Positions 39,201 through 44,173 of a DNA stretch of 64,000 bases are shown here, in pieces; position 1 is the first letter of the stretch; each line of letters begins with the position of its first letter. The position numbers and the translations under genes were made by a program. The notes under the pieces are model-generated. The model worked only from the letters and a program-made list of their open reading frames with translations, was not told the DNA's origin and did no database searches. The DNA is taken from contig CAZFHY010000013.1 in the NCBI GenBank assembly GCA_964519305.1, positions 32,001-96,000 of the forward strand, written 5' to 3'. Origin of the DNA: Candidatus Undinarchaeota archaeon (lineage in GTDB: Archaea > SpSt-1190 > JASMDC01).

Positions 39201-40544
39201 ATGAGGATTGGTGTATACGTTTGCGAGTGCGGTATCAACATCGCCGCCACCGTCGATGTGGAGAAGGTGGCGAAGGCCGCAGAGAGCCTGCCCGGCGTGA
39301 AGATCTCACGGTACTACAAGTACATGTGCTCGGACCCGGGCCAGGACATGATCAAGAAGGACATCAAGGAGCTCAAGCTCGACCGCGTCGTCGTGGCGTC
39401 CTGCTCTCCCTTGATGCACGAACCTACCTTCCGAACTGCCTGTGAAGAGGCGGGCCTCAACAAGTACTGCTTCGAGATGGCCAACATCAGGGAGCAGTGC
39501 TCATGGGTGCACAAGGACAAGGAGAAGGGGACCGAGAAGGCCCTCGCCATCGTCCGAGCGTCCGTAGCTAAGGCCGCTCTCCTCCAGGCCATGGACGAGA
39601 AGCAGGTCCCTGTGACGAAGAAGGCGATGGTGATCGGCGGCGGTATCGCCGGTATCCAGACCGCGCTGGACATCGCCGACATGGGCTTCCCCGTGACCCT
39701 GGTGGAGCGCGAGCCCAGCGTAGGTGGGCACATGGCCCAGCTGGACAAGACATTCCCCACCCTGGACTGCTCTGCATGCATCCTGACCCCCAAGATGGTC
39801 GACGTGGGAAGGCATCCCAACATCGAGCTCCTGACCTTCGCCGAGGTCGAGGAGATCGACGGCTTCGTAGGTAACTTCAACGTCAAGGTCAGGAAGAAGG
39901 CTAAGTCCATCGACACGGAGAAATGCACGAGCTGCGGTGAGTGCATGATCAACTGCTTGGTCCGGTACCTCCCCCAACCCCAAGAGGTCCCGAGCATCCG
40001 TGACTCCATCGATGAGGACACCCTCAAGAAATACGATGCAGTCATCAGCAAGCACGAGGGCGGCGCCCTCATTCCGGTCCTACAGGACATCAACGCGACG
40101 TTCAACTACCTGCCTGCGGACGCCCTTGCCTGCGTTGCAGAGAAGCTGGAGCTCCCGCTGAGCCAGGTGTTCCACGTGGCGACCTTCTACACGGCCTTCA
40201 GCTTGGAGCCGCGCGGTGAGCACCTCATCAAGGTCTGCCTCGGCACTGCCTGTCACGTGCGGGGTGGCCATGGGGTCCTGGACGAGATCGTGCGACAGCT
40301 CGGTATCCAGCCCGGTGAGACCACCGAGGACAAGAAGTTCACACTGGAAACGGTCAACTGTCTCGGTTGCTGTGCCCTCGGCCCAGTGGTCGTTATCGAT
40401 GACCAGTACTACCCGACGTCCCCCAGGAAGGTGGGCGCACTGCTCAATGAGTACCGGACCACGGGAGGGGCCGGGATCAAGCCGGTCGCCCCCCCTGAGC
40501 AAACACTTGAGGAGCTGACGGAAACGGGAGGTGGACGAATATGA
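39201..40544 (+). CDS. fusion: HdrA N-terminal half + NuoE/HydC [2Fe-2S] domain
   Basis: About aa 1-252 are collinear with HdrA up to [11 protein letters not shown]. Then follow LIPVLQ...[19 protein letters not shown] and CLGCC. Confidence 0.9.
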
Positions 40545-42394
40545 CGAAGCTCGCTAACGTCAAGGATCTAGAGGCGCTTAGTAAAGAGGTCGCTGCCACA
40601 AAGGACCCGAAGAAGCGCAGCATCATCGTATCAGGCGGTACCTGCGGTCGCGCCTTCGGTGGGGACGAACTGGTCGCCTCCGTAAAGAAGGAGCTCGAAG
40701 CACAGGGCCTTAAGGACAAGATCGACCTCAGGGTCACCGGTTGCCTTGGTTTCTGTGAGAGAGAGCCCATCATGCTGATCCTCCCTGAGAGGATATTCTA
40801 CCCCCAGCCTGCCCCGAAGGACGTGGCCGAGATCATCACCGAGACCGTGGTCAACGGGAAGGTGATCGACCGGCTCCTGTTCACCGATCCCGCCACTGGC
40901 GAGAAGGTCGTGCAGGCACCGGAGGTACCCTTCTACAAGAAGCAGGAAAAGAACGTCTTCGGCAGGAACGATAAGATCGATCCCACGAGCATCACCGACT
41001 ACATCGGTATCGGAGGGTACGGCTCCCTGGCCAAGGCCCTCTCGTCCATGAAACCCGAACAGGTCATCGGCACTATCAAGAAGTCGGGCCTGCGCGGGAG
41101 GGGTGGTGCTGGTTTCCCCACAGGGAAGAAGTGGGAGTTCTGTCGGAACGCACCCGGTGATTACAAGTACATCATCTGCAACGCCGACGAGGGAGATCCC
41201 GGTGCCTTCATGGACCGGAGCATCCTGGAAGGTAATCCGAACAGTGTCCTTGAGGGGATGCTCATCGGAGCGTTCGCCATCGGTGCCAACAAGGGCATCA
41301 TCTATGTGCGGGACGAGTACCCGCTGGCCGTCGAGCGACTCGAGAACGCTATCAAGCAGGCGAAGGAGCTCGGGCTCATGGGCAAGAACATCCTCGGCTC
41401 CGGGTTCGATTTCGAGATCGAGATCCACCGCGGTGCCGGTGCCTTCGTTTGCGGCGAGGAGACATCTCTCATCGCCTCCCTTGAGAACCGTGCGGGCGAG
41501 CCGCGCCAGCGGCCCCCCTTCCCCGTTACCAAGGGTCTGTGGGGCAAGCCCACCAACATCAACAACGTGAAGACCTGGGCCAATGTCCCCCTTATCATAG
41601 ACAAGGGTGCCGACTGGTTCGCCGGTATCGGTACAGAGGGGAGCAAAGGAACCATGATCTTCTCCCTGGTAGGCAAGGTCAACAACACGGGATTGGTCGA
41701 GGTCCCCATGGGGATCACTCTCCGGGAGATGGTCTACGACCTCGGTGGCGGTATCAAGGACGGTAAGGCGTTCAAGGCCGTACAGATCGGCGGGCCTTCA
41801 GGTGGCTGTATCCCAGCGGACCTGCTCGACCTACCGATCGACTACGAGCGCCTCACAGAGGCCGGCGCCATGATGGGCTCCGGCGGTATGATCGTCATGG
41901 ACGAGACCACCTGTATGGTGGACGTGGCCAAGTACTTCCTCAACTTCCTCAAGGGGGAGTCGTGCGGTAAGTGCACGCCGTGCAGGGAGGGGGTCATGCA
42001 GATGCACAAGATCATCAGTGACATCTGCGACGGCAATGGGAGCATGGAGGACCTCAAGCTCCTCGAAGAGCTCGCTGCCTTCATCAAGGACGCGTCGCTC
42101 TGTGCTCTAGGGAGGACCGCGCCGAATCCGGTCCTGACCACGACCCGGTTCTTCATGGATGAGTACAAGGCCCACATCGAGAACAAGAAGTGCCCCGCGG
42201 GCGTGTGCAAGGCGCTGATCAGCTACAATATCAATGCCGAAGCGTGCACGGGTTGTACCCTGTGCGCGACACAGTGCCCACAAGAGGCCATCACTGGCGA
42301 TAAGAAAGCAGCGCATACCATCGATTCGAAGAAGTGCATCAAGTGCGGCATCTGCAAGGATGTGTGCAACTTCGGTGCGGTGAGGGTCGACTAG
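40541..42394 (+). CDS. nuoF: NuoF/HydB-like FMN NADH-binding subunit
   Basis: [43 protein letters not shown] and [13 protein letters not shown]-terminal 2[4Fe-4S]. Confidence 0.93.
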
Positions 42395-42397
42395 GAG

Positions 42398-44173
42398 GTG
42401 ATGATGATGGTAACATTCACTATTGACGGAGAAAAGGTCGAAGCTGACGAAGGTATGACGGTGCTAGAGTTCGCCCAGAAGCAGGGTATCGAGATTCCGA
42501 CCCTGTGCTACCACAAGGCGCTCGAGCCCTACGGTGGTTGCCGGTTGTGCCTCGTGGAGGTCACCGATAACGGACGGACGAGCCTCATGGCCTCGTGCAG
42601 CTACCTGATCAAGGACGGTATCGAGATCAAGACCGCATCCGACCGGGTCATCACGACCCGCAAGATGGTCATGGAGCTGTTGCTGGCGCGCTGTCCGAAC
42701 TCGGACGATGTCAAGGCCCTGGCCAAGGAGATGGGCGTCGACGGGACGCGGTTCGCTATCAACGAGAACAAGGACGAGAAGTGCGTCCTGTGCGGCCTGT
42801 GCGTGCGCATCTGCAAGGACGTGATGGGGCTCGGCGTGACGGGCTTCGTGAACCGCGGATACAAGCGTGATAAGACCACACCTTTCGGCGAGCTATCCAA
42901 GCTCTGCATGACCTGCGGCGCGTGCACCTTCGTGTGCCCGACGGACGCCTTCGGATTGGACGAGATCACATCGACCGCGCCCAAGCCGATCAAGTTCGAG
43001 TTCGAGGAGGGGCTGGTCAACCGACCTGCGGTGTACATCCCCTTCCCCCAGGCCGTCCCCAAGATCCCCGTGATCGACAAGGAGCGCTGTGCGTACTACA
43101 CCACCGGGCAGTGCAAGGCCTGCGAGAAGTTCTGCGAGCAGGATGCGATCGTGTACGACCAGGAGGACGAGGTCGTCGACCGGGACGTGGGCGCCATCGT
43201 GGTGGCCACCGGGTTTGACATGTTCGATCCCGCGAAGACGCCCCAGTACGGCTACGGGACGTCCGCCCGCATCATCACTGGCCTGGAGTTCGAGCGTTAC
43301 ACCAACGCCTCGGGCCCCACCGGCGGTAAGATCAAGATCGATGGTAAGGAACCGAAGAAGGTCGCCTTCATCTCGTGCGTCGGCTCGCGCGACAGAGAAG
43401 GCCATGAGTACTGTTCCAGGATCTGCTGCATGTACACGGCAAAACATGCGCACATGGTCAGGGACAAGCTCCCCGGCTCCGAGGTCACGGTGTACTTCAC
43501 CGATATGCGCGCCTTTGGAAAGGGCTTTGAGGAGTTCTATAACAGGGTCAAGGAAGAGGGCGTCGAGTACCGACGACGGGAGCTCGAGGAAGACATCCAG
43601 ATCATCCCGAAGGGCAACGGCGTCGTTGTCAAGTCTGCCGGTCACCCGGACCTCGATGTGGACCTTGTTGTGCTCGCGACGGCAGTGGAACCTCGAGGGG
43701 ACACGGGTGCCGTCCGAAGCCTCCTGAAGGTATCCTCCAGCATGGACGGATTCCTCCTGGAAGCCCACCCCAAGCTGCGACCCATCGACACCCACACTGA
43801 CGGCATATTCCTGGCCGGTTGCTGCCAGGCACCAAGGGACGTCCCCGACACCGTGGCCCAGGCGAGCGGTGCGGCCTCGAGGGTCACATCGCTGCTGTCG
43901 AGGGAGAACCTCTCCATCGACGCCATCGTGTCGTTCGTCAATGAGAAGCAGTGCCGCGGATGCGGATTCTGCGTCGAGGTGTGCCCTTACGGGGCCATCG
44001 AGCTCGTGACCAAGGACCTGGCCGGGCGCGAGGTCATGATCGCCTCGGTGAACGAGGCGCTGTGCAAGGGCTGTGGCTCATGCGCGGCCGCCTGTCTGTC
44101 CGGTGCGATGCAACAGAAGGGCTTCACGGACGAGCAGCTGCTTGATGCTCTTGACGGACTGGTGGGGGGGTGA
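42398..44173 (+). CDS. fusion: NuoG/HydA-like N-terminal Fe-S domain + HdrA C-terminal half
   Basis: IPTLC..GGCRLC..SC, CVLCGLC and CMTCGAC, then YIPFPQAVP, ATG, LEFER, CSRICCMY, HPKLRP, GIFLAGC and a terminal ferredoxin. Start among 42398-42407. Confidence 0.9.
   Translation: MMMMVTFTIDGEKVEADEGMTVLEFAQKQGIEIPTLCYHKALEPYGGCRLCLVEVTDNGRTSLMASCSYLIKDGIEIKTASDRVITTRKMVMELLLARCPNSDDVKALAKEMGVDGTRFAINENKDEKCVLCGLCVRICKDVMGLGVTGFVNRGYKRDKTTPFGELSKLCMTCGACTFVCPTDAFGLDEITSTAPKPIKFEFEEGLVNRPAVYIPFPQAVPKIPVIDKERCAYYTTGQCKACEKFCEQDAIVYDQEDEVVDRDVGAIVVATGFDMFDPAKTPQYGYGTSARIITGLEFERYTNASGPTGGKIKIDGKEPKKVAFISCVGSRDREGHEYCSRICCMYTAKHAHMVRDKLPGSEVTVYFTDMRAFGKGFEEFYNRVKEEGVEYRRRELEEDIQIIPKGNGVVVKSAGHPDLDVDLVVLATAVEPRGDTGAVRSLLKVSSSMDGFLLEAHPKLRPIDTHTDGIFLAGCCQAPRDVPDTVAQASGAASRVTSLLSRENLSIDAIVSFVNEKQCRGCGFCVEVCPYGAIELVTKDLAGREVMIASVNEALCKGCGSCAAACLSGAMQQKGFTDEQLLDALDGLVGG

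What the first reader, a model, noticed from the sequence alone, without database searches (positions are those of the whole stretch)
39201..44173. Split HdrA with a NuoEFG/HydCBA-like module inserted into its ferredoxin domain
Seen: 39201-40544 is HdrA up to the first Cys motif of the inserted ferredoxin ([11 protein letters not shown], about 39924-39956), fused to NuoE. A full NuoF follows. 42398-44173 is a NuoG-type Fe-S domain fused to the rest of HdrA, resuming near 42990 (FEEGL..RPAVYIPFPQAVP). The halves add up to one HdrA when compared with the intact copy, and keep GGGIAG, LEFER and CCMY.AK. Established: HdrA and HydABC-type enzymes are two separate classes of flavin-based bifurcating modules; HdrL carries an NADH-binding insert of a different (GltD-like) type; in 2[4Fe-4S] ferredoxins each cluster takes ligands from both Cys motifs. 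Inference: a three-chain complex rebuilds HdrA in trans, with the FAD site and two clusters shared between polypeptides, hard-wiring two bifurcation chemistries. I know of no characterised example.
Basis: partly seen in the sequence, partly recalled or inferred. Interest (0 to 1): 0.92.

Follow-up and report, generated by a model that had tools for sequence, protein, structure and literature searches.

The report
Split HdrA wrapped around Bfu module
In this archaeon the electron-splitting flavoprotein HdrA is encoded as two complementary pieces fused to the outer subunits of a second, unrelated NADH/ferredoxin electron-splitting module; this design is conserved in many uncultured microbes, I found no paper describing it, and nobody has tested it biochemically.

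Summary
Gene 39201-40544 is HdrA residues 1-255 plus NuoE. Gene 40541-42394 is a full HydB/BfuB-type NuoF. Gene 42398-44173 is a NuoG-N Fe-S domain plus the rest of HdrA. The break falls between the two Cys motifs of HdrA's inserted ferredoxin domain.

It is not an artefact. Contigs from 4 of 4 runs bridge every junction. 10 of 80 related loci, from several bacterial phyla and one archaeon, carry the same layout, and both half-motifs are invariant. A complex model rejoins the halves (0.87 against 0.00 for controls), though this may reflect memory of solved HdrA structures.

The three genes sit in an 11-gene operon: intact HdrA, split HdrA/Bfu, MvhD, an NAD(P)H module, a second MvhD and an Mvh [NiFe] hydrogenase. 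There is no HdrBC.

Most likely the Bfu module replaces free ferredoxin at HdrA's low-potential exit and links H2 or NAD(P)H to NAD+ and ferredoxin. Two bifurcations in series remain possible.

Split forms are not one clade (AU p = 9e-5). The same site takes GltD-like and other inserts elsewhere.

This scan has already noted the layout on other DNA (19 notes, at least 18 genomes). I found no paper describing it. The closest known systems are class II benzoyl-CoA reductase and NiFe-HydABCSL.

The parts
37201..39198 (+). Intact HdrA paralogue (665 aa), first gene of the operon. It ends 2 nt before the split copy.
   Evidence: HdrA2 profile positions 1-642, 841 bits. It is 60% and 55% identical to the two halves. 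An AT-rich intergenic stretch lies upstream.
39201..40544 (+). HdrA N half fused to a NuoE/HydC/BfuC-like [2Fe-2S] domain. Residues 1-255 hold the N-terminal Fe-S domain, the FAD Rossmann start and the first Cys motif of the inserted ferredoxin. Residues about 272-420 are the NuoE-like part.
   Evidence: Cys 242, 245, 248 and 252, and the NuoE Cys 346, 351, 387 and 391, are invariant in 18 of 18 sequences.
39924..39956 (+). First four-Cys motif of HdrA's inserted ferredoxin domain. It is left on the N half.
40541..42394 (+). NuoF/HydB/BfuB-like FMN/NADH subunit. It has the N-terminal thioredoxin-like [2Fe-2S] extension and the C-terminal 2x[4Fe-4S] extension.
   Evidence: It aligns over residues 28-614 with 7t2r_B residues 8-594 (811 bits), with the Cys motifs kept. 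Pfam finds Complex1_51K, SLBB, NADH_4Fe-4S and Fer4 x2.
42398..44173 (+). NuoG-N/HoxU/BfuA-like Fe-S domain fused to the HdrA C half. Residues 1-186 hold a [2Fe-2S] and 2x[4Fe-4S], with no His-ligated cluster motif. The HdrA part holds the rest of the inserted ferredoxin, the FAD domain with its [4Fe-4S] site, and the C-terminal ferredoxin.
   Evidence: Invariant Cys sets and K349 in 10 of 10 sequences.
43088..43135 (+). Second four-Cys motif of the inserted ferredoxin domain (Cys 231, 239, 242, 246 of the C half).
   Evidence: It contacts N-half residues 241-255 in the model.
44170..44604 (+). MvhD-type [2Fe-2S] adaptor, copy 1. It overlaps the previous gene by 4 nt.
   Evidence: FlpD 8e-58. 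An MvhD gene follows the split HdrA in 10 of 10 related loci.
44601..45551 (+). FrhB-C-like Fe-S protein.
   Evidence: Fer4 families and FrhB_FdhB_C. The same gene follows MvhD in L001, L002, L054, L058, L039, L037 and L004.
45552..46559 (+). Sulfhydrogenase-beta/AsrA-like Fe-S subunit.
   Evidence: Fer4_22; ShyB and HydB profiles.
46561..47397 (+). Sulfhydrogenase-gamma/AsrB-like FAD, NAD(P)H and [2Fe-2S] subunit.
   Evidence: NAD_binding_1, FAD_binding_6, DHODB_Fe-S_bind.
47412..47825 (+). MvhD-type adaptor, copy 2.
   Evidence: FlpD 1.5e-52.
47824..48840 (+). Mvh/Vhu-type [NiFe]-hydrogenase small subunit.
   Evidence: VhuG profile 4.8e-63.
48841..50334 (+). Mvh/Vhu-type [NiFe]-hydrogenase large subunit.
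   Evidence: VhuA profile 6.5e-133.
50229..50921 (+). Hydrogenase maturation protease. Coordinates are the ORF as listed. The profile match starts at residue 111, so the true start is probably later.
   Evidence: TIGR00072 3.2e-22.

Best explanation
The operon 37201-50334 encodes one soluble multi-subunit oxidoreductase.

A two-piece HdrA is rebuilt in trans. Its FAD fold, and the two [4Fe-4S] clusters of its inserted ferredoxin domain, are each made from both chains. A complete HydBC/Bfu-type NADH-ferredoxin module is tied to the two ends of the break.

The inserted ferredoxin domain is the low-potential exit of canonical HdrA, where free ferredoxin is reduced. The Bfu module therefore takes the place of free ferredoxin there.

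Electrons enter or leave HdrA's flavin through MvhD. They come from the Mvh [NiFe] hydrogenase (H2) and/or the sulfhydrogenase-beta/gamma-like NAD(P)H module. They pass the rebuilt ferredoxin domain and the NuoG-N clusters to the BfuBC core. The core couples them to NAD(H) and ferredoxin.

The net reaction would be a reversible H2 (or NADPH) : NAD+ + ferredoxin oxidoreduction. That makes it a [NiFe]/Hdr-scaffolded counterpart of HydABC, NiFe-HydABCSL and Stn/Nfn-Bfu.

What is shown: gene anatomy, conservation and motif complementarity. What is inferred: assembly, wiring, substrates and direction.
For: Anatomy and complementarity of the halves.

Both half-motifs are invariant (18 of 18 and 10 of 10). 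So are the FAD-domain cluster Cys residues and K349.

The genes are tightly packed, with 4-nt overlaps or gaps of 3 nt or less from 39198 to 46561.

The same layout followed by MvhD occurs in 10 of 80 fetched loci. MvhG+MvhA follow in 5 of these, and the FrhB-like/beta/gamma module (in L027 only a weak FrhB-like match) in 5.

The NuoF is of the bifurcating type over its full length, including both Fe-S extensions. Its best solved match is the B subunit of the NiFe-Bfu hydrogenase, 7t2r.

The complex model scores ipSAE 0.87 against a best control of 0.00. That mark was reached by 58 of 80 solved complexes and 2 of 110 mismatched pairs. The runs agree in at least 89% of contacts and partner pLDDT is at least 89. 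Contacts include the Rossmann strands and both Cys motifs. HdrA is solved as a single chain, so the pass may be from memory and shows likeness only.

No CCG (HdrB) domain lies in the operon. The 6 matches in the genome are on other contigs.

The role of the inserted ferredoxin domain as low-potential exit is taken from passages of PMC9012536 and the BCRII preprint.
Against: There is no biochemical, structural or expression evidence for any member.

The FAD-domain [4Fe-4S] site is the high-potential exit towards HdrC in canonical Hdr. That site, and the lysine that the BCRII preprint calls a hallmark of bifurcating HdrA flavins, are invariant. This fits a flavin that still bifurcates and has a partner I did not identify.

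In the only solved complex with both module types (BCRII), the Bfu module feeds HdrA's input side through the C-terminal ferredoxin and MvhD, not its low-potential exit. The wiring proposed here therefore has no solved precedent.

The roles of the intact HdrA and of the two MvhD copies are unassigned.
Confidence: 0.55

Rival explanations
1. Two bifurcations in series. HdrA's flavin still bifurcates. It sends a high-potential electron through its FAD-domain cluster to an unidentified acceptor, which could be HdrBC encoded elsewhere, the FrhB-like or beta subunits, or the intact HdrA. The low-potential electron goes into the Bfu module, which couples it again to NAD(H) and ferredoxin. Run in reverse, this would be double confurcation.
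For: The FAD-domain Cys set (327, 339, 343, 344) and K349 are invariant in 10 of 10 sequences. BCRII shows that the two module types can work in one complex. PMC12054007 proposes two bifurcation events for other Hdr clusters. HdrB-type genes exist elsewhere in the genome.
Against: No high-potential acceptor is encoded in this operon, nor was one seen next to the split genes in the related loci with the queries used. Conserved cluster ligands may be structural. There is no thermodynamic or experimental support.
Confidence: 0.3
2. The two HdrA pieces do not reassemble. The N piece serves only as an Fe-S or flavin appendage of NuoE, and the C piece as an extension of the NuoG-like subunit, each with its own role.
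For: In 7 of 10 related loci the N piece is a free-standing protein. C halves fused to other N-terminal domains also exist, for example P0129.
Against: The N piece has only the first strand-helix-strand of the FAD fold and half a ferredoxin motif. The two pieces co-occur in 10 of 10 loci. Both half-motifs are invariant. The model rejoins them (with the caveat about memory).
Confidence: 0.05
3. Artefact or decay: a mis-assembly, or an hdrA gene disrupted by an insertion and now non-functional.
For: An intact paralogue lies directly upstream and could make the split copy dispensable.
Against: In runs X1 and X2, single contigs of 37.6 kb and 22.7 kb cover 39000-44400 with 0 differences. In X5 and X6, overlapping contigs bridge every junction. 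These runs may be the source of the DNA. All frames are open. The design is conserved with invariant ligands across phyla.
Confidence: 0.01

Closest known systems
Class II benzoyl-CoA reductase BamBCDEFGHI ('Bam-Bfu') of Geobacter metallireducens. Source: passages of PMC9304861 and of bioRxiv 10.64898/2026.04.10.717634.
   Same: It is the only characterised complex that combines a HydBC/Bfu-type module (BamGHI) with an HdrA-type flavoprotein (BamE) and an MvhD-type adaptor (BamF). The best solved match of the NuoG-N domain here is a 247-aa 'NuoG-like' chain of a NuoEFG-like trimer, 9mqx_A (2.9e-40). I could not establish what that entry is.
   Different: In Bam the modules are separate subunits and HdrA is one chain (a fused double HdrA). 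The Bfu module feeds HdrA's input side through the C-terminal ferredoxin and MvhD. Outputs go to a tungsten AOR-type subunit and to an HdrBC-like BamD. Here HdrA is split, the Bfu module is tied to the inserted ferredoxin domain, and the operon has no AOR or CCG protein.
NiFe-HydABCSL (NiFe-Bfu) of Acetomicrobium mobile, PDB 7t2r. Also the [FeFe] HydABC enzymes (8a6t, 7q4v).
   Same: These provide the best solved matches of the NuoF-like subunit (811 bits, full length) and good matches of the NuoE part. The predicted net reaction is the same: H2 + NAD+ + ferredoxin.
   Different: In those enzymes the hydrogenase binds BfuA directly. Here a group-3c-type Mvh hydrogenase would be linked through MvhD and a two-piece HdrA with its own FAD.
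MvhAGD-HdrABC of hydrogenotrophic methanogens (PDB 5odc, 8rvu)
   Same: HdrA's domain set and ligands, MvhD, MvhG and MvhA are all present. Together the halves cover 5odc_A residues 5-258 and 262-649.
   Different: The operon has no HdrBC. HdrA is in two chains. A Bfu module stands where free ferredoxin is thought to dock.
HdrA with a GltD/NfnB-like insert: HdrL, 'type III HdrA', ANME-1 HdrA9-11. Source: passages of PMC9012536 and PMC12054007.
   Same: A second NAD(P)H-handling flavin module sits at the same site in the inserted ferredoxin domain. L004 (Hadarchaeota) has such a 1115-aa HdrA in an otherwise homologous operon: intact HdrA, modified HdrA, MvhD, FrhB-like, beta, gamma. PMC12054007 likewise infers two separate insertion events for its type.
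   Different: That insert is a single-chain, single-flavin GltD-type domain. Here a three-subunit FMN/Fe-S module splits the gene.
Stn / Nfn-Bfu transhydrogenases (8oh5, 9n5u)
   Same: They are Bfu enzymes whose BfuA carries an extra flavin domain for the third substrate. Their B subunits match at 690-751 bits.
   Different: Their extra domain is GltD-like and is fused only to BfuA. No HdrA, MvhD or hydrogenase is involved.

Membership tests
HdrA (heterodisulfide reductase subunit A fold) | N-terminal Fe-S domain and a glycine-rich FAD motif | tested here: met
   These are on the N half. HdrA profiles match residues 2-255. Cys 8, 10, 43, 68 and 100 and the Gly motif are invariant in 18 of 18 sequences.
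HdrA (heterodisulfide reductase subunit A fold) | Inserted ferredoxin domain with two four-Cys motifs | tested here: met
   Met only across two chains. Motif 1 is on the N half (242-252). Motif 2 is on the C half (231-246). Both are invariant.
HdrA (heterodisulfide reductase subunit A fold) | FAD-domain [4Fe-4S] ligands, a lysine next to the CC pair, and the C-terminal 2x[4Fe-4S] ferredoxin | tested here: met
   On the C half, Cys 327, 339, 343 and 344, K349, and Cys 519-529 and 556-566 are invariant in 10 of 10 sequences. That this lysine is the one near flavin N5 is inferred from its position in the motif and from the BCRII preprint passage.
HdrA (heterodisulfide reductase subunit A fold) | Single polypeptide reaching the curated family score | tested here: not met
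   The halves score 383.6 and 417.2 bits against a cut-off of 1100 for NF040770. Each half is only part of the profile.
Bfu family (BfuABC; Schut et al. 2022, PMC9304861, abstract and passages) | BfuB with an FMN/NADH site plus an N-terminal [2Fe-2S] and a C-terminal 2x[4Fe-4S] | tested here: met
   It aligns over the full length with 7t2r_B, 8a6t_B and 9n5u_B, with the Cys motifs kept.
Bfu family (BfuABC; Schut et al. 2022, PMC9304861, abstract and passages) | BfuC with a [2Fe-2S] cluster | tested here: met
   2Fe-2S_thioredx 1.3e-45. Its four Cys residues are invariant. It matches 8a6t_C and 7t2r_C.
Bfu family (BfuABC; Schut et al. 2022, PMC9304861, abstract and passages) | BfuA Fe-S subunit that feeds the core | tested here: met
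   Residues 1-186 of the third protein carry a [2Fe-2S] and 2x[4Fe-4S]. The His-ligated cluster motif is absent in 10 of 10 sequences. I did not map these clusters to the paper's A1-A5 numbering.
Bfu family (BfuABC; Schut et al. 2022, PMC9304861, abstract and passages) | Coupled reduction of NAD+ and ferredoxin | not testable with these tools
   This needs an enzyme assay.
MvhAGD-HdrABC complex | HdrB/HdrC (CCG domains) as the disulfide-reducing output | tested here: not met
   No CCG domain lies in the operon. The 6 matches in the genome lie on contigs C21, C4 and C31.
Class II benzoyl-CoA reductase (Bam) | Tungsten AOR-type BamB and HdrBC-like BamD | tested here: not met
   None of the 11 operon proteins matches an AOR or CCG family.

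The most novel reading that the evidence does not exclude
The split HdrA/Bfu unit is a natural two-stage device. A flavin-only (HdrA) bifurcation site and a flavin/Fe-S (Bfu) bifurcation site are joined cluster to cluster through a ferredoxin domain shared by two polypeptides. Low-potential electrons therefore never leave the protein. In addition, HdrA's inserted ferredoxin domain would be a general plug-in socket, filled repeatedly and independently in evolution by different redox modules: NuoEFG-type, GltD-type, extra ferredoxins and FrhB-like domains.
Probability: 0.3. Interest if true: 0.85.

Novelty: new variant of a known kind. Interest (0 to 1): 0.72.

Why it matters
Flavin-based electron bifurcation underlies energy conservation in anaerobes. 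Only a handful of module types are known. Their combination in one complex has so far been characterised only in class II benzoyl-CoA reductase.

Here two module types are tied together by gene fusion at a defined cluster-to-cluster junction. The design is widespread in uncultured bacteria and archaea and is annotated piecemeal.

It offers a tractable system of soluble proteins with few substrates. With it one could ask how two coupling sites communicate, what HdrA does without HdrBC, and how hydrogen, NAD(P)H and ferredoxin pools are linked in sediment and marine anaerobes.

The same-site variants also make HdrA a case study in modular enzyme evolution.

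Tried and rejected
**Literature.** Five full-text searches and passages of 12 papers gave no description of an HdrA split by, or fused to, NuoE/NuoG-type subunits.
- The six fused-name phrases hit 0 papers.
- PMC12054007, which classifies HdrA in methane-metabolising archaea, has 0 occurrences of 'nuo'.
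- The review by Appel et al. 2021 (BBA Bioenergetics) is not held, so I could not check it.
The supplementary clade tables of Schut et al. 2022 may list this gene-cluster type.

**Expression.** No RNA holder was listed for the stretch.

**Relatives.** With a 334-aa query across the NuoG-N/HdrA junction, none of the 40 relatives searched, including one genome of the same genus (98% complete), gave a match spanning the junction. The layout was not found in those searched.

**Fully fused form.** I looked for a single polypeptide holding all parts. Of the 12 long proteins I scanned, out of the 150 representatives, five of 1320-1504 aa carry GltD-type domains (Fer4_20 plus Pyr_redox_2), not NuoEF. 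None of the 150 shows HdrA(N)+NuoE+NuoF+NuoG(N)+HdrA(C) in one chain.

**Origin of the cassette.** NuoF and NuoG-N trees of 13 loci recover the same shallow groups as the HdrA halves. Their deep forks are unresolved, so they do not settle single against multiple origin.

**9mqx.** The accession 9mqx does not occur in the main text of the BCRII preprint, whose data-availability passage lists 29QY, 29RC and 29RN. Its identity stays open.

Full report
**Observation**

- 39201-40544 (447 aa) matches HdrA profiles over residues 2-255 and NuoE/HoxE profiles over 273-419.
- 40541-42394 (617 aa) is a NuoF homologue.
- 42398-44173 (591 aa) matches HoxU/NuoG/HydA-N profiles over residues 2-186 and HdrA profiles from about 188 to 586.

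In profile coordinates, the HdrA2 model is covered 1-256 by the first protein and 247-638 by the third. Against the intact HdrA encoded directly upstream (37201-39198), the N half is 60% identical (172/288) and the C half 55% identical (244/447). Against solved HdrA (5odc_A), the halves cover residues 5-258 and 262-649.

The break therefore falls just after the first four-Cys motif of the inserted ferredoxin domain (residues 242-252, nt 39924-39956) and before the rest of that domain. The second four-Cys motif is at residues 231-246 of the C half.

The NuoG-type part has its own complete 2x[4Fe-4S] pair (Cys 129-139 and 170-180) and a [2Fe-2S] site (Cys 37, 48, 51, 67). The two HdrA half-motifs therefore have no partner in cis.

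**Is it real?**

In runs X1 and X2, from two studies, single Logan contigs of 37.6 kb and 22.7 kb cover 39000-44400 with no difference. In X5 and X6, overlapping contigs bridge every gene junction and both fusion points.

These runs may be the source of the window's DNA, so they show consistent assembly rather than independent origin. The apparent joint from 39899 to 43307 in that output is the intact upstream paralogue aligning to both halves. It is not a deletion variant.

Conservation is the stronger argument.
- The 120 best database homologues of the first protein all carry HdrA(N)+NuoE. The closest non-identical one is 68% identical.
- Of the 80 loci fetched from species-representative genomes with an HdrA(N) profile, 10 carry hdrA(N), nuoE, nuoF, nuoG(N)-hdrA(C) and mvhD in that order.
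- These 10 come from an unclassified bacterium, Planctomycetota, Zixibacteria, Ignavibacteria (2), an uncultured bacterium, Anaerolineae (2), a MAG labelled Alphaproteobacteria, and an uncultured archaeon.
- Among the 150 best 50%-identity representatives of the third protein, 15 hold NuoG(N)+HdrA(C).
- The four Cys of the N-half motif are invariant in 18 of 18 aligned sequences. Those of the C-half motif are invariant in 10 of 10.

**Corrections to the anatomy**

Fusion of the N half to NuoE is not universal. It occurs in the window, in L001 and L002, and in truncated form in L027. In 7 of the 10 loci the N half is a separate ORF of 281-329 aa, whose stop overlaps the nuoE start by 4 nt in 6 of them. 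In L068 other genes lie between the two. The NuoG(N)-HdrA(C) fusion is present in all 10.

The three genes are also not a unit of their own. In the window they are genes 2-4 of a tightly packed operon:
1. intact HdrA
2. HdrA(N)-NuoE
3. NuoF
4. NuoG(N)-HdrA(C)
5. MvhD
6. an FrhB-C-like Fe-S protein
7. a sulfhydrogenase-beta/AsrA-like subunit
8. a gamma/AsrB-like FAD-NAD(P)H subunit
9. a second MvhD
10. MvhG
11. MvhA

A maturation protease follows. From memory, genes 5-8 resemble the FlxDCBA set of sulfate reducers (Ramos et al. 2015). I did not read that paper.

No CCG (HdrB) domain is encoded in the operon. The six matches in the genome lie on three other contigs.

The host is an archaeon. Its SSU and LSU rRNA are best matched by the archaeal models. 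The genome is 3.63 Mb and 99.8% complete, with three full-length HdrA genes besides the split one.

**The Bfu module**

The NuoF-like protein aligns over residues 28-614 with the B subunit of the bifurcating NiFe-HydABCSL of Acetomicrobium mobile (7t2r_B residues 8-594, 811 bits). It also aligns at full length with HydB of [FeFe] HydABC enzymes and with NfnB of Nfn-Bfu. The alignments include the N-terminal thioredoxin-like part and the C-terminal 2x[4Fe-4S] part, with their Cys motifs. Complex I NuoF proteins match only residues 140-550.

This fits the definition of the Bfu family in Schut et al. 2022 (abstract and passages). The NuoE part matches HydC chains. The NuoG(N) part's best solved match is a 247-aa NuoG-like chain of entry 9mqx.

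**Do the halves reassemble?**

The N half holds only the first strand-helix-strand of the FAD fold. The C half holds the remainder.

I modelled the HdrA part of the C half (residues 190-591, alignment of 10) with the N half (residues 1-268, alignment of 18), FAD and two [4Fe-4S]. The model gave ipSAE 0.87 in three runs, against 0.00 for the best of three controls. There were 413-438 contacts, the runs agreed in at least 89% of contacts, and partner pLDDT was at least 89.

The mark used was reached by 58 of 80 solved complexes and by 2 of 110 mismatched pairs. Those counts hold only roughly here, because my own alignments and ligands were used.

The contacts include pairing of C-half residues 264-271 with N-half residues 143-146, and contacts between the two Cys-motif regions. 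HdrA has been solved as a single chain, so this pass may be from memory. It shows that the pieces are complementary, not that they bind.

**Mechanism**

Passages of Chadwick et al. 2022 and of the BCRII preprint describe canonical HdrA as follows.
- Mid-potential electrons enter through the C-terminal ferredoxin domain and MvhD.
- The high-potential branch leaves through the FAD-domain cluster to HdrC/B.
- The low-potential branch leaves through the N-terminal-domain cluster and the inserted ferredoxin domain to ferredoxin.

Here the Bfu module is tied by short linkers to both ends of the break in that low-potential exit. The simplest reading is that it takes the place of free ferredoxin. MvhD would connect the flavin to the Mvh hydrogenase and/or the NAD(P)H module.

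The net reaction would then be the reversible coupling of H2 (or NADPH) to NAD+ and ferredoxin. This is the reaction of HydABC, NiFe-HydABCSL and Stn/Nfn-Bfu, carried out on an Hdr/Mvh scaffold.

Two features keep a bolder reading open, in which both sites bifurcate in series and a high-potential partner remains to be identified. The FAD-domain cluster ligands are invariant, and so is the lysine next to the CC pair. The preprint calls that lysine a hallmark of bifurcating HdrA flavins. None of this has been tested.

**Evolution**

I built a tree of the HdrA C part from 146 rows: 13 split, 97 intact and 36 of unclear architecture. L082 was dropped as a duplicate of the window. L027's split copy was dropped because its match was too short. 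On this tree the split state needs 9 changes.

I then dropped the 36 unclear rows. An AU test on the remaining 110 rejects a single clade of the 13 split forms (log-likelihood 656 lower, p = 9e-5). I named the group after seeing the first tree. The model was LG+G4 with a quick search. The N-part tree needs 5 changes, at least 2 of them forced by well-supported branches.

Intact sisters share the downstream genes of their split relatives:
- L037: MvhD, FrhB-like
- L079: MvhD, MvhG, MvhA
- L039: MvhD, FrhB-like, beta, gamma

The window's halves group with the adjacent intact copy and with Hadarchaeota HdrA. In that Hadarchaeota locus (L004), the homologous operon has a 1115-aa HdrA with a GltD/NfnB-like insert at the same site where the window has the Bfu cassette.

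Other same-site variants exist among the representatives:
- single-chain HdrA(N)+NuoG(N)+HdrA(C) (P0135, P0152)
- an extra 2x[4Fe-4S] domain (P0167, P0168)
- an FrhB-like N-terminus on a C half (P0129, the sister of the window's C half)
- NuoG(N)+HdrA(C)+MvhD (P0133)

Repeated gain, repeated loss by re-fusion, and exchange between homologous operons would each fit these data. The NuoF and NuoG(N) trees of 13 loci do not decide between them. Among 40 relatives of the host, including one of the same genus, no junction-spanning match was found. That fits patchy, probably horizontal, distribution.

**What is known**

The combination of a HydBC/Bfu-type module and an HdrA-type module in one complex is established for class II benzoyl-CoA reductase (Schut 2022 passages; BCRII cryo-EM preprint passages). 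There the modules are separate subunits, and the Bfu module feeds HdrA's input side.

Inserts of a GltD/NfnB-type flavin domain at the same HdrA site are described for ANME-1 and Bathyarchaeota. The authors of PMC12054007 also infer two separate insertions.

I found no paper describing HdrA split by, or fused to, NuoE/NuoG-type subunits. The Appel et al. 2021 review and all supplementary files could not be checked.

NCBI names the first protein 'NAD(P)H-dependent oxidoreductase subunit E'.

This scan has noted the same layout before on other DNA: 19 notes in at least 18 genomes. Those are unchecked AI notes and do not count as evidence. Their claims of conservation across phyla and of no published description agree with what I tested here.

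**Verdict**

The mechanistic part is open.

It is a new variant of known kinds, a Bfu enzyme grafted onto an Hdr/Mvh scaffold. It is widespread and uncharacterised.

Noticed in passing
L004:10001-13348 (Hadarchaeota MAG): A 1115-aa HdrA has a GltD/NfnB-like insert (Fer4_20 plus Pyr_redox_2, residues 290-680) at the site where the window has the Bfu cassette. The operon is otherwise homologous: intact HdrA, modified HdrA, MvhD, FrhB-like, beta, gamma.
   Followed up: yes
L068:3246-7046 (Ignavibacteria MAG): Between hdrA(N) and nuoE lie six extra co-directional ORFs of at least 100 aa. Five match HATPase_c, a HydS-like protein (Fe_hyd_lg_C plus FeS), DRTGG, PHP and HATPase_c (the first, 3246-3626, has no Pfam match). 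From memory, this accessory set accompanies hydABC operons, which hints that the cassette derives from a HydABC-type operon.
   Followed up: partly
L027:9986-16107 (uncultured archaeon): A variant in which the N piece lacks HdrA's N-terminal Fe-S domain (it starts at about residue 131) and is fused to NuoE. The C piece is a 1081-aa protein made of NuoG(N), HdrA(C) and a second HdrA. An intact HdrA again lies directly upstream.
   Followed up: partly
P0129, P0135, P0152, P0167, P0168, P0133 (representatives): Other architectures at the same HdrA break point: an FrhB-like N-terminus on a C half; single-chain HdrA(N)+NuoG(N)+HdrA(C); an extra 2x[4Fe-4S] domain (in P0167 together with three receiver domains); and NuoG(N)+HdrA(C)+MvhD.
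   Followed up: partly
L024:1-7693 and L061:2-11911: Two deltaproteobacterial loci have NuoF and an unfused NuoG(N)-like gene a few kb from intact HdrA genes. This is an unsplit co-location of the two module types. The window's NuoF is 65% identical to that of L024.
   Followed up: no
window 51571-54046 (-), 56629-57102 (+), 58012-61504 (-): Downstream of the hydrogenase lie two MinD/ParA-type P-loop ATPases (one with a ferredoxin-like stretch), a NifU/IscU-like scaffold, a nickel/cobalt transporter-like protein and CbiO/CbiQ-type ECF components. These are plausibly metal supply and cluster maturation for the operon.
   Followed up: no
window 30861-34592 (+): Upstream cluster of an SsnA-like aminohydrolase, a PreA/dihydroorotate-dehydrogenase-like protein with a C-terminal 2x[4Fe-4S], and a cytosine-deaminase-like amidohydrolase. 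Two CBS-domain proteins and an AsnC-type regulator on the opposite strand follow.
   Followed up: no
window 74-13719: Several very large ORFs (955, 909, 764, 736 and 490 aa) have no NCBIfam match at E <= 1e-10.
   Followed up: no
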